Source of the DNA: Escherichia coli
GTDB lineage: Bacteria > Pseudomonadota > Gammaproteobacteria > Enterobacterales > Enterobacteriaceae
Assembly: GCF_030013205.1 (NCBI RefSeq)
Contig: NZ_CP122648.1
DNA: 64,000 nt
Direction: 5' to 3' (one strand)
Shown here: piece by piece, positions 47,103 through 48,306 of the stretch
Layout: every line of letters starts with the position of its first letter
Numbering within the stretch: position 1 is the first letter of the stretch
Notes under the pieces: generated by a model
The model's input: only the letters and a program-made list of their open reading frames with translations
Told to the model about the DNA's origin: nothing
Database searches by the model: none
Made by a program: the position numbers and the translations under genes

Positions 47103-47136
47103 AAAAAAAGCCCGCAGCGCGGGCTATTCTTTTTTG
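47103..47136. terminator. bidirectional rho-independent terminator
   Basis: aaaaaaagcccgc-agc-gcgggct-attctttttt. Confidence 0.6.
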
Positions 47137-47990
47137 CTATTTCTTTGATATATATTTCTTCCATTTTTGGTAACACGAATAACGTGCCCCCTGGATTCTA
47201 CTTTGTTATTTGTTGCTTTATATACTTCAAAATCAAACCATGATATATAACTTATTTCGTCAATAGACACCATGATCTCAAGTCCTGGCACTTTCTTTCT
47301 GCTAATTCCTCTTATTGCTGCAGTCCGCTTGACCTGTATTTCTCCTGGATAAGCATTAGTGAATGTGACAGATAAGTTGTCTTTGTTCCTGTATCCTGAC
47401 ATTAAAGGAACAAAAGATATGTGCTGATGCGGACCCTGATTTTCCGTTGGTTCACCAGAACCATTTATTATTCCAACATACACTTTGTTTGATGATAAAG
47501 TAATCAGCATTGGTCGTTTAGGATCCGATTCAATAGCATCAAGCAATAGTAAGTCTAAAGAACCTTGCGAGTAAGTTTTTCGCAGTACTCTGGCCTTCAT
47601 TGCCTCTGTTTTTTGCTCGTAAATATCACGTTTATAAAAACAACCAAGAAGAAAATCTTTCACCCACACAACAGACACATAACACAAAGAGAAGCAAATG
47701 GATGTGGCTGAGAGAAGAAGCAGCCACATGTAAATTCTATCTGTTTCTGGTTTTGATGTTACATTAAAAGTTTCCACCATATCGTGAACTAGGTGAAAAT
47801 CAGGCCATTTATATTTTATAGCGGCTGCAATTATTACTGATGCAACAAGGCAATATGTACCTAGTGCCGCTACTTTCATATAAAGAAGCTGGCCTTCGTG
47901 TCGGTATAAACGGAAATAATGATACTGGTTAGCGGTTATCATAATATAACCGCTAACCAGGATTGGGATAATTAGAAGAGCTAGCAACAC
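47124..47990 (-). CDS. uncharacterised membrane protein (N-terminal TM helices + ~170-aa soluble C-terminal domain); candidate abortive-infection/exclusion effector
   Basis: 288-aa ORF, strongly AT-rich; hydrophobic segments LLALLIIPILVSGYIMI, VAALGTYCLVASVIIAAAI, IYMWLLLLSATSICFSLCYVSVVWV; start overlaps the upstream gene stop (ATGA). Confidence 0.55.
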   Translation of the reverse strand: MLLALLIIPILVSGYIMITANQYHYFRLYRHEGQLLYMKVAALGTYCLVASVIIAAAIKYKWPDFHLVHDMVETFNVTSKPETDRIYMWLLLLSATSICFSLCYVSVVWVKDFLLGCFYKRDIYEQKTEAMKARVLRKTYSQGSLDLLLLDAIESDPKRPMLITLSSNKVYVGIINGSGEPTENQGPHQHISFVPLMSGYRNKDNLSVTFTNAYPGEIQVKRTAAIRGISRKKVPGLEIMVSIDEISYISWFDFEVYKATNNKVESRGHVIRVTKNGRNIYQRNSKKE

Positions 47991-48199
47991 TACTTCCTTA
48001 CAGTGGCAAGATCCTGTTTAACAATTGCAGCAGCGAGACGACGCATCTCCTTAACCTCAGGAAGCTCAGAAATTTGCTGTGATGAGATATATACTCCACC
48101 ACGCTTGTTAACCTGCGCTGACGCCGGAACTTCTGCATTTTTTGCCTGAGGGCTGGGTGCATTATCCCTCGTTTTTGTACGAGCGAACCAAAATCCCAT
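47990..48199 (-). CDS. small protein co-transcribed with the membrane protein
   Basis: 69-aa ORF with strong RBS (gaggagga) and an operator-like site (48225-48241) upstream. Confidence 0.5.
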   Translation of the reverse strand: MGFWFARTKTRDNAPSPQAKNAEVPASAQVNKRGGVYISSQQISELPEVKEMRRLAAAIVKQDLATVRK

Positions 48200-48306
48200 A
48201 TATCCTCCTCATGTAAACACATGGTTTACCTTTAAGGTAATATTACGCGAATCTACATCACATCGCCAATGATTATTTTAAAGGCACATCCCTGTGCCGC
48301 CGCTCG

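What the first reader, a model, noticed from the sequence alone, without database searches (positions are those of the whole stretch)
47124..48241. Uncharacterised two-gene operon (69-aa protein + 288-aa membrane protein) in the prophage accessory region: candidate novel defence/exclusion system
Two translationally coupled genes on the minus strand (ATGA overlap at 47990) with a strong RBS, an operator-like palindrome upstream (48225-48241) and an intrinsic terminator downstream (47103-47136). The 288-aa product has N-terminal TM helices and a soluble C-terminal domain with no motif I recognise. The effector gene is markedly AT-rich compared with the flanking virion genes, as expected for a horizontally acquired moron. 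This architecture is typical of prophage-encoded abortive-infection or superinfection-exclusion modules, and I cannot assign it to a known family.
Basis: partly seen in the sequence, partly recalled or inferred. Interest (0 to 1): 0.8.

Follow-up and report, generated by a model that had tools for sequence, protein, structure and literature searches.

The report
Mobile small-protein plus membrane Sm-like gene pair
The two genes are real. They belong to a widespread, so far unnamed gene pair: a small cytoplasmic protein and an inner-membrane protein with an Sm-like cytoplasmic domain. The pair moves between prophage cargo slots, plasmids and chromosomes, and it looks like a toxin-antitoxin or abortive-infection module, but no function has been tested.

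Summary
Both genes exist on the minus strand: a 69-aa gene (47990-48199) and a 288-aa gene (47124-47990). They are coupled by a TAGTG 1-nt overlap, not ATGA. The pair is AT-rich cargo (47135-48223) in an exchangeable slot of an epsilon15/phiV10-like E. coli prophage. The terminator and the "operator" palindrome lie in the conserved slot flanks, and the palindrome recurs at 8 intergenic sites in the window.

The pair occurs in the P2 old/tin defence hotspot (52 E. coli genomes, sometimes beside TIR or bSEFIR genes), on IncC plasmids, and as isolated insertions among housekeeping genes in Pseudomonas, Vibrio and Sphingomonas. In sister prophages the same slot carries other small+large pairs, including a YafO toxin pair.

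My best reading is a toxin-antitoxin-like membrane effector module that probably acts in abortive infection or exclusion (confidence about 0.4). It is uncharacterised and untested.

The parts
47990..48199 (-). Small gene, 69 aa. It is cytoplasmic with no TM segment. It has a disordered N-terminus, a beta-hairpin carrying the family motif (consensus VVGRGTv.ID; here NKRGGVYIS) and a C-terminal helix (EVKEMRRLAAAIVKQ).
47124..47990 (-). Large gene, 288 aa, GTG start that shares its G with the TAG stop of the small gene. It encodes an inner-membrane protein with a C-terminal Sm-like domain.
   Evidence: phrog_3630, E 2e-114, covering residues 4-288. 714 homologous 50%-identity clusters. AF2 pLDDT 87.5 and pTM 0.77. 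dN/dS 0.02-0.24. PGAP annotates only 47124-47879.
47640..47990 (-). Membrane region, residues 1-117. It holds three long hydrophobic helices (2-20, 33-61, 81-117) and the highly conserved loop motif YRLHRYEGQxLY (here FRLYRHEGQLLY) between helices 1 and 2.
   Evidence: Secondary structure of the model. Conservation of L11, G14, R30, G33, L36, Y37 and G44. The topology (N-out, C-in) is my inference from the positive-inside rule.
47193..47558 (-). C-terminal cytoplasmic domain, residues about 145-266. It has an N-terminal helix followed by a bent beta-sheet, which is an Sm/LSm/Hfq-like small beta-barrel. The invariant residues are Y171, S198-G199-(Y200)-R201 and Y214.
47925..47960 (-). Perfect 15-bp hairpin with a 6-nt loop inside codons about 11-22 of the large gene, followed by a U-rich stretch. 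In the predicted fold, a closing long-range stem pairs the large gene's SD and GTG with the sequence just 3' of the hairpin.
   Evidence: The fold z-score is -5.56 and 0 of 200 shuffles fold as well. The hairpin is kept in the enterobacterial clade with 4 pairs changed on both sides; 80% of cells are paired, against 22-53% when the partners are slid. It is not general to the whole family.
48204..48210 (-). Shine-Dalgarno GAGGAGG of the small gene.
   Evidence: Read directly from the sequence.
47993..47999 (-). Shine-Dalgarno AAGGAAG of the large gene, located inside the 3' end of the small gene.
   Evidence: Read directly from the sequence. One-base stop/start overlaps (TAATG, TGATG, TAGTG) are common across the family.
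47135..48223 (.). The exchangeable cargo segment. Everything outside it is shared with prophages that carry other cargo.
   Evidence: blastn breakpoints at 47132-47134 and 48224-48225 against TL-2011b and phiv142-3. Alternative cargo in the same slot is shown.
47109..47125 (-). Intrinsic-terminator-like hairpin that ends the operon. It is bidirectional and belongs to the conserved slot flank.
48226..48240 (.). Palindrome TTACCTT-A-AAGGTAA, 26 nt upstream of the small gene's ATG. It is one copy of a motif repeated across the prophage and lies in the conserved flank. It is not an operator specific to this module.

Best explanation
The locus is one copy of a mobile, conserved two-gene module. The upstream gene makes a small cytoplasmic protein of about 60-90 aa, with a beta-hairpin and a helix. 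The downstream, translationally coupled gene makes an inner-membrane protein with three TM helices whose cytoplasmic tail folds as an Sm-like beta-barrel.

Here the module is cargo in a swap-in slot. The slot lies downstream of the C4-RNA/antirepressor (immI-like) region of an epsilon15/phiV10-like prophage. It uses the slot's shared upstream region and terminator.

Most likely mechanism (inferred, not shown):
- The membrane protein is a toxic effector. It oligomerises through its Sm-like domain, as Sm folds typically form 6-7-mer rings, and it perturbs the inner membrane.
- The small protein, made in excess, binds it and keeps it inactive.
- The excess would come from coupling plus an SD-sequestering structure and an attenuator-like hairpin at the 5' end of the large gene.
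- Infection by another phage, or loss of the element, would upset this balance and trigger growth arrest, abortive infection or exclusion.

Shown here: the gene pair, its conservation, mobility, fold and genomic contexts. Inferred: toxicity, neutralisation, oligomerisation and the anti-phage outcome.
For: - Strict pairing. A small-protein homolog lies directly upstream in 83 of 89 loci and nowhere else in those loci. Stop/start overlaps or gaps of 24 nt or less are the rule.
- Both genes are under purifying selection in six clades.
- Mobility. There are about 50 unrelated neighbourhoods among 89 loci. Settings include prophages (epsilon15-like; phiES15 between int and attP; P2-like), IncC conjugative plasmids and chromosomes.
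- Hotspot logic. In P2-like prophages the pair sits between gpA/DinI and the portal gene. This is the old/tin locus, which PMC9122126 shows to be a reservoir of anti-phage systems. The pair is the sole cargo there in strain Tig228. Elsewhere it is combined with TIR, bSEFIR, PIN_12, DUF262/DUF1524 or SieB genes.
- In sister epsilon15-like prophages the same slot holds other small+large pairs, one of them a YafO-family toxin with a 59-aa partner.
- The antitoxin-first architecture and the AT-rich composition fit a toxin-antitoxin-like module.
- The structured 5' end of the large gene fits tight limitation of a harmful product.
- Membrane proteins are accepted effectors of abortive-infection systems (stated in PMC9122126).
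Against: - No experiment and no homology links either protein to toxicity or defence. PADLOC 2.0 gives nothing even at E<=1.
- In 7 of 7 annotated non-MGE contexts no canonical defence gene lies within +/-8-10 kb. In Pseudomonas clades the pair is stably inherited among housekeeping genes, which would also fit an ordinary cellular role.
- The small protein has no recognisable DNA-binding antitoxin fold.
- The cassette lies downstream of a C4-regulated antirepressor gene with no detected terminator or consensus promoter in between. Expression in the lysogen, which a defence role requires, is therefore not established.
Confidence: 0.4

Rival explanations
1. A pure addiction or toxin-antitoxin stabilisation module. 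The pair is a selfish element that spreads and persists by post-segregational killing and gives no meaningful anti-phage benefit.
For: - Isolated two-gene insertions occur in many unrelated chromosomal sites, next to a transposase or an integrase, and on conjugative plasmids.
- The neighbouring slot cargo includes a classical YafO toxin pair.
- hipBA modules lie nearby in two loci.
- No defence-island association is seen outside Enterobacterales.
Against: - The pair repeatedly occupies the P2 old/tin hotspot, including as its sole cargo, and sits beside TIR/bSEFIR genes.
- Many toxin-antitoxin modules turn out to be defensive, so this is not cleanly separable from the best explanation.
- Toxicity itself is unproven.
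Confidence: 0.2
2. A superinfection-exclusion protein. The membrane protein sits in the inner membrane of the lysogen and blocks genome entry of incoming phages, as P22 SieA or T4 Imm do. The small protein would be an assembly or regulatory partner, and no cell death would be involved.
For: - The gene lies after the internal-virion/ejection protein genes and beside the antirepressor (immI-like) region. From my own knowledge, this is the same relative place as sieA in P22.
- The product is an inner-membrane protein.
- A SieB-annotated gene co-occurs with the pair in some P2 loci.
Against: - Most family members are outside prophages, in core-genome settings, where exclusion of a specific phage's DNA entry is a less natural role.
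- No PHROG or NCBIfam Sie annotation matched.
- The obligatory cytoplasmic partner and the cytoplasmic Sm-like domain are not features of known Sie proteins (my own knowledge).
Confidence: 0.12
3. An ordinary physiological membrane module, for example a small channel or a stress or envelope regulator with an Sm-like ligand- or RNA-binding tail. It would be occasionally picked up by mobile elements and have no role in conflict.
For: - Syntenic inheritance under purifying selection across Pseudomonas species groups, next to thyA/lgt, aminotransferase and similar genes.
- The 3-TM plus cytoplasmic Sm-like beta-domain layout recalls MscS-type channels (my own knowledge).
Against: - The distribution is very patchy, with about 50 different neighbourhoods.
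- The composition is AT-rich relative to the host.
- The pair is present at prophage cargo slots and on plasmids.
Confidence: 0.2
4. A lysis or virion-associated protein of the prophage, such as a holin or spanin-like protein or an injection accessory.
For: It is a membrane protein encoded between the virion genes and the tail-spike/lysis genes.
Against: - The prophage has its own holin, endolysin and DUF2514 cassette elsewhere.
- Only 27 of 421 genomes with the full left slot flank carry the cassette, so most sister prophages lack it.
- Homologs occur outside phages.
- No structural or lysis PHROG matched.
Confidence: 0.03

Closest known systems
Type II toxin-antitoxin modules carried as prophage cargo (for example the YafO-family toxin with its small upstream partner, found in the identical slot of phage TL-2011b)
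   Same: A small upstream gene overlaps or abuts a larger downstream gene. The genomic slot, orientation, flanking upstream region and terminator are the same. The distribution is patchy and mobile.
   Different: The downstream product is a 3-TM membrane protein with an Sm-like domain, not a soluble RNase. The upstream product has no HTH, RHH or AbrB domain. Toxicity and neutralisation are untested.
Membrane effectors of abortive-infection systems (RexB of lambda RexAB; CBASS 2TM effectors such as Cap15/S-2TMbeta)
   Same: An N-terminal TM module is fused to a small cytoplasmic beta-rich domain. One AFDB structural neighbour (28% identity) carries the UniProt label 'SMODS-associating 2TM beta-strand rich effector'. 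The pair occurs in phage defence hotspots.
   Different: No Pfam S_2TMBeta hit in 71 members and no PADLOC CBASS-effector hit. No cyclase or other sensor gene is conserved nearby. The beta-domain matches Sm/LSm folds best; from my own knowledge, Cap15 has an 8-stranded barrel. The partner is a 69-aa protein, not an enzyme.
Sm/LSm/Hfq superfamily (and the related WYL ligand-sensor domains of defence regulators)
   Different: No sequence similarity (hhalign 0.1% to Hfq; no Pfam LSM). It is tethered to the membrane by three TM helices. RNA or ligand binding and ring formation are unknown.
MscS-type mechanosensitive channels
   Same: The same gross layout, from my own knowledge of MscS: three TM helices, N-out/C-in, followed by a cytoplasmic Sm-like beta-domain that forms a heptameric ring.
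P22 SieA-type superinfection exclusion proteins
   Same: An inner-membrane prophage product encoded next to the immI/antirepressor region, downstream of the ejection-protein genes (the P22 gene order is from my own knowledge).
   Different: No detected homology. The protein is larger, has a cytoplasmic folded domain and a partner gene, and most relatives are outside prophages.

Membership tests
Any defence system in PADLOC-DB 2.0 (including the PDC candidates and CBASS TM effectors) | An HMM match to a system component | tested here: not met
   There were 0 families at E<=1 for both window proteins and 0 at E<=0.1 for homolog pairs from four phages.
CBASS S-2TMbeta / Cap15 effector | A Pfam S_2TMBeta domain | tested here: not met
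   No Pfam family matches any of 71 members at E<=0.001. The only link is one AFDB neighbour that carries that label.
CBASS S-2TMbeta / Cap15 effector | Genomic association with a CD-NTase (SMODS) cyclase | tested here: not met
   No third gene family recurs next to the pair across 89 loci. None of the Pfam-annotated neighbourhoods contains a cyclase.
Type II toxin-antitoxin module | A two-gene operon with a small upstream and a larger downstream gene, translationally coupled, mobile and patchily distributed | tested here: met
Type II toxin-antitoxin module | The antitoxin carries a DNA-binding domain (HTH, RHH, AbrB or Phd) and autoregulates | tested here: not met
Type II toxin-antitoxin module | The toxin arrests growth and the antitoxin neutralises it by binding | not testable with these tools
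   This needs expression and interaction experiments or multimer modelling.
Sm/LSm/Hfq superfamily | The Sm fold: an N-terminal helix plus a strongly bent five-stranded sheet | tested here: met
Sm/LSm/Hfq superfamily | Sm1/Sm2 sequence motifs, or a profile match to LSM/Hfq | tested here: not met
   There is no Pfam LSM or Hfq hit. hhalign against E. coli Hfq gives probability 0.1%. The profile search of PDB sequences is empty at E<=10.
Sm/LSm/Hfq superfamily | A hexameric or heptameric ring that binds RNA | not testable with these tools
   No multimer prediction or biochemistry is available.
MscS-like channel | MS_channel profile match | tested here: not met
Rst_2TM_1TM_TIR (phage AC1 system, PMC9122126) | Homology to the AC1 2TM or 1TM proteins, and an associated TIR protein | tested here: not met
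   hhalign of the family profile against AC1 protein 1 gives probability 0.5%, and against protein 2 gives 0.2% (sequences from Table S2). A TIR gene is present in only some P2 loci and absent from others.
Phage lysis or structural proteins | A PHROG or NCBIfam match with lysis or structural annotation, and conservation among sister phages | tested here: not met
   phrog_3630 and phrog_5739 are 'unknown function'. The cassette is present in 27 of the 421 E. coli genomes that carry the full left slot flank.

The most novel reading that the evidence does not exclude
The pair is a previously unrecognised, widespread anti-phage (abortive-infection or exclusion) system of Proteobacteria. Its effector would be a new kind of membrane-tethered Sm-like ring: a cytoplasmic Sm barrel that senses a nucleic acid or nucleotide cue, or the loss of its small partner, and gates or disrupts the membrane through its three TM helices. 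It would be the first Sm-fold membrane effector in bacterial immunity and would explain an unannotated recurrent occupant of the P2 old/tin hotspot.
Probability: 0.3. Interest if true: 0.75.

Novelty: new variant of a known kind. Interest (0 to 1): 0.6.

Why it matters
If the module is a defence or toxin-antitoxin system, several things follow:
- It adds a family of about 700 sequence clusters to the known repertoire. The family spans Gamma-, Beta- and Alphaproteobacteria, prophages and IncC resistance plasmids.
- It gives a function to a 'hypothetical + hypothetical' pair that recurs in the well-studied P2 hotspot.
- It introduces an unusual effector architecture: an Sm-like barrel on a 3-TM anchor, controlled by a partner of about 65 aa.

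The locus also documents a clean plug-in slot for two-gene modules in epsilon15/phiV10-like prophages, with a shared upstream region and terminator. That slot could be mined for further systems.

If the module has no conflict role, the result is still useful. It defines a new conserved membrane-protein family with a confident fold prediction, and it corrects the RefSeq start site.

Tried and rejected
- Sequence libraries gave no named hit for either protein: PADLOC, NCBIfam, Pfam on single sequences and on 71 and 51 family members, and profile searches of PDB sequences.
- The idea that the palindrome is an autoregulatory operator was rejected. It lies in the conserved flank and is repeated across the prophage.
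- The idea that the large protein is the '2TM' or '1TM' component of the validated AC1 2TM+1TM+TIR system was rejected by hhalign.
- A Rosetta-stone fusion of small and large proteins was sought among 226 retrieved proteins. None was found, apart from one 120-aa fragment that spans both genes and is probably a frameshift.
- A conserved third gene was sought and none exists.
- Literature searches for a characterised member found nothing: Sm-like/Hfq-like plus membrane plus defence, DefensePredictor including its supplements, Rousset 2022 including its supplements, and Uetakevirus. Brenes & Laub 2025 is not held in the library and could not be checked.
- A first search for related loci attempt with the 71-sequence alignment failed for lack of a conserved stretch and was repeated with 16 sequences.
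- The 5' hairpin is not a family-wide feature: the median z-score across 85 genes is about 0.4.
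Full report
**What is in the sequence**

On the minus strand there are two ORFs. One encodes 69 aa (47990-48199, ATG) and is preceded by GAGGAGG. The other encodes 288 aa (47124-47990, GTG) and is preceded by AAGGAAG. The stop of the first gene and the start of the second share one base (TAGTG).

GC is 0.36-0.41 across the pair, against 0.52-0.60 in the upstream virion genes. 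A G+C-rich hairpin with a T-run at 47109-47125 follows the stop codon. A 7+7 bp palindrome lies at 48226-48240.

The window is 100% identical over this stretch to the chromosome of E. coli ETEC4071. There the region is an epsilon15/phiV10-like (Uetakevirus-like) prophage. The gene order is:
- T7-gp14-like core protein, SLT transglycosylase and large internal proteins;
- this locus;
- a BRO-N antirepressor, the tail spike, holins and the endolysin.

RefSeq starts the large gene at an internal ATG (47879, 251 aa). The PHROG profile, tblastn matches and a 71-sequence alignment all align from residue 1-4, and the first 37 residues contain the most conserved motif of the family. The long form is therefore correct.

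**The cassette and its slot**

blastn against phages TL-2011b and phiv142-3 shows that the flanks are shared at 90-98% identity up to 47132-47134 on one side and from 48224-48225 on the other. The cargo is therefore about 47135-48223, which is just the two genes and their ribosome-binding sites. Two consequences follow:
- The terminator is slot property, not part of the module.
- The palindrome is also slot property. TTACC-N5-GGTAA occurs at 8 sites in the window, against 0.01 expected. All 8 sites are intergenic and lie 5-60 nt before gene starts, including the tail-spike gene. It is a prophage-wide regulatory motif, not an operator for this pair.

Immediately upstream of the antirepressor gene, Rfam finds a C4 antisense RNA, an isrK-like RNA and the a1b1 C4 target sites. 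The cassette therefore sits at the distal end of an immI-like unit. No terminator and no consensus promoter was detected between the antirepressor gene and the small gene, so how the cassette is expressed in the lysogen is open.

The left flank of the slot is found in 536 of 5426 complete E. coli genomes, 421 of them with at least 80% of it, and 27 genomes carry this cassette. Other prophages carry different cargo at the same place, nearly always a small gene followed by a larger one:

| Source | Small gene | Large gene |
|---|---|---|
| TL-2011b | 59 aa | YafO-family toxin |
| Strain N25 | 108 aa | DUF2335 protein |
| Strain MS 57-2 | 62 aa | 110 aa |
| Strain E423 | 55 aa | 146 aa |
| Strain EcPF40 | none | single 210-aa gene |
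| phiv142-3 | two tiny ORFs | none |

None of the tested alternative slot cargos (phiv142-3 was not included) matches PADLOC or NCBIfam.

**The proteins**

Neither protein matches Pfam, NCBIfam, PADLOC or PDB sequences. PHROGs places them in two 'unknown function' families, phrog_3630 and phrog_5739.

The large protein belongs to a sizeable family of 714 clusters at 50% identity with E<=1e-3. Two regions are conserved:
- an N-terminal motif, LLILPILVSGF...YRLHRYEGQxLYLK;
- a C-terminal motif, RKVYVGxV..GEPNE...P..SGYRDKDTL.V.FT..Y.

The invariant residues are G44, Y171, S198, G199, R201 and Y214.

Foldseek against AFDB finds only uncharacterised relatives. One of them carries a UniProt 'SMODS-associating 2TM beta-strand rich effector' label. 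No family member hits that Pfam model.

The small protein is predicted to have a disordered N-terminus, a beta-hairpin and a long helix.

**The pair is a conserved unit**

I fetched 80 loci from species-representative genomes and added phage and metagenome loci. In these, a 55-95 aa ORF ends within -13 to +24 nt of the large gene's start in nearly all cases. The small proteins are mutually homologous, with a core S.RVVGRGTv.IDp.Ev...eFK....A..iV. The window's 69-aa protein fits this pattern.

An HMM of the small family finds an adjacent upstream copy in 83 of 89 loci and no copy elsewhere in the loci. Three of the six exceptions have a trivial cause (two contig ends, one frameshifted large gene); the other three (L043, L071, L076) have no detected small homolog. 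No third gene is conserved. dN/dS is 0.02-0.24 for the large gene and mostly 0.04-0.4 for the small gene in six clades, so both are real, selected genes.

**Where the pair lives**

About 50 unrelated neighbourhoods occur among the 89 loci.
- Epsilon15-like prophage slots in E. coli and Providencia.
- Between the integrase gene and attP in Cronobacter phage phiES15.
- P2-like prophages, between gpA/DinI and the portal gene. This is the old/tin hotspot that PMC9122126 showed to be a reservoir of anti-phage systems.
  - That version occurs in 52 of 5426 E. coli genomes.
  - It can be the only cargo, as in strain Tig228.
  - It can sit beside a bSEFIR-type protein or a small TIR protein.
  - In Table S5 of that paper the pair appears as 'hypothetical + hypothetical', together with SieB, PIN_12 or DUF262/DUF1524 genes.
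  - It is not among the systems they cloned and is unrelated to their AC1 2TM+1TM+TIR system.
- IncC conjugative Salmonella plasmids (27 plasmid records in all, 25 of them Salmonella), between a RecD-like/PDC-S68-like ATPase and an orphan methyltransferase.
- Isolated pairs among housekeeping or metabolic genes in Pseudomonas, Vibrio, Sphingomonas, Paraglaciecola, Fluviicoccus and Symbiopectobacterium. Examples are thyA-lgt/MerR and nusG/rplK. A transposase, an integrase or hipBA is sometimes nearby, but no canonical defence genes are. Within Pseudomonas species groups the position is syntenic.

**An RNA feature**

Codons about 11-22 of the large gene form a perfect 15-bp hairpin (47925-47960) followed by a U-rich stretch. 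The 106-nt region folds with a z-score of -5.56. In the predicted fold, the SD and GTG of the large gene pair with the sequence just 3' of the hairpin.

The hairpin is retained in the enterobacterial clade (Symbiopectobacterium, Providencia, Yersinia and a Citrobacter P2-like copy). Four base pairs are changed on both sides, and 80% of cells are paired, against 22-53% in slid controls. It is not general to the family. I read it as a device that limits translation of the large gene, or makes it depend on translation of the small gene. That is an inference.

**Interpretation**

The shown facts are these:
- a strict, mobile small+large gene pair;
- a membrane protein with an Sm-like cytoplasmic domain;
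- residence in cargo slots that elsewhere hold a YafO toxin pair or anti-phage systems;
- signs of restrained expression of the large gene.

They fit best a toxin-antitoxin-like module whose membrane protein is the effector and whose small protein is the antidote or regulator. In prophages and plasmids such a module would act in abortive infection, exclusion or addiction. Sm folds usually assemble into 6-7-mer rings. A ring of 3-TM subunits would resemble a small channel, with an MscS-like layout, which suggests membrane permeabilisation as the mode of action.

None of the following is tested: toxicity, binding, oligomerisation or phage protection. The many core-genome copies without defence neighbours keep a non-conflict physiological role alive. 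I put about 0.4 on the defence/Abi-type reading, 0.2 on pure addiction, 0.12 on entry exclusion, 0.2 on a physiological membrane function, and almost nothing on lysis or structure.

**Novelty**

No characterised member was found in the libraries or the literature I could search. One relevant paper, Brenes & Laub 2025, could not be read. The general kind, a two-gene membrane-effector module in phage hotspots, is known. The family, its Sm-like membrane architecture and its small partner are not described. I rate it a new variant of a known kind, with moderate-to-high interest that depends on experiments.

Noticed in passing
window 26367, 31449, 32608, 34634, 48226, 49267, 49360, 50479 (15-nt sites): A palindromic motif, TTACC-N5-GGTAA, occurs at 8 sites (12 matches counting both strands), against 0.01 expected. 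All sites are intergenic and lie 5-60 nt upstream of gene starts, including the tail-spike gene. In several sites the right arm overlaps an SD-like GAGG/AAGG. It is probably the operator or 5'-UTR element of a regulator that acts across this prophage.
   Followed up: partly
window 49048-49243 (- strand): Rfam finds a C4 antisense RNA (49048-49135, 78.6 bits), an isrK-like RNA (49154-49230, 74.7 bits) and a weaker match, below its gathering score, to the a1b1 C4 target sites. All lie directly upstream of the BRO-N antirepressor gene (48307-49044). This is a P1/P7-type immI arrangement, and the cassette lies at its distal end with no detected terminator in between.
   Followed up: partly
window 47925-47960 and 47905-48010 (- strand): A 15-bp perfect hairpin lies inside the 5' coding region of the large gene. 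A predicted long-range stem sequesters that gene's SD and start codon. The fold z-score is -5.56, and compensatory changes are seen in enterobacterial homologs.
   Followed up: partly
window 47135-48223 versus L095, L096, L101, L107-L110: The slot between the 53-aa 'transmembrane anchored protein' gene and the BRO-N gene is a plug-in site. At least six different cargos occur there, mostly small+large gene pairs, and one is a YafO-family toxin pair. All are uncharacterised by PADLOC and NCBIfam.
   Followed up: partly
window 46272-46832 (+): An AT-rich (GC about 0.37) 186-aa gene with an N-terminal signal-peptide-like sequence (phrog_11983, unknown function; no PADLOC hit). It sits right after the last large virion protein gene and looks like another moron.
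   Followed up: no
window 46869-47102 (-): A small gene, 77 aa as the longest ORF and 53 aa in RefSeq. It matches phrog_14503, 'membrane associated protein (moron)'. It is conserved as the left border of the slot and is truncated in strain ECONIH2, where an extra 167-aa gene follows the cassette.
   Followed up: no
window 47879-47990: RefSeq/PGAP calls the large gene from the internal ATG at 47879 (251 aa). This removes the first TM helix and the conserved YRLHRYEGQ loop. Database members of the 90% cluster are annotated with lengths from 251 to 306 aa.
   Followed up: yes
window about 42023-43720 (+) (L001 3024-4721): A 565-aa gene among the internal-virion protein genes is annotated in RefSeq as 'exodeoxyribonuclease VII large subunit'. 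That looks out of place in this gene block and may be a mis-annotation.
   Followed up: no
L104 (IncC plasmid pSTY1-2010K-1587) 3872-9065: On IncC plasmids the pair is flanked by a RecD-like ATPase that matches the PADLOC candidate PDC-S68/type IV RecD models (E 1e-44 to 2e-50) and by an orphan type II methyltransferase. This may be a small defence cluster next to the mer operon.
   Followed up: partly
phrog_23864; P0041, P0050, P0135, P0161: Short relatives of about 100-146 aa match only the C-terminal Sm-like domain of the large protein. There may be stand-alone soluble versions, or these may be fragments.
   Followed up: no
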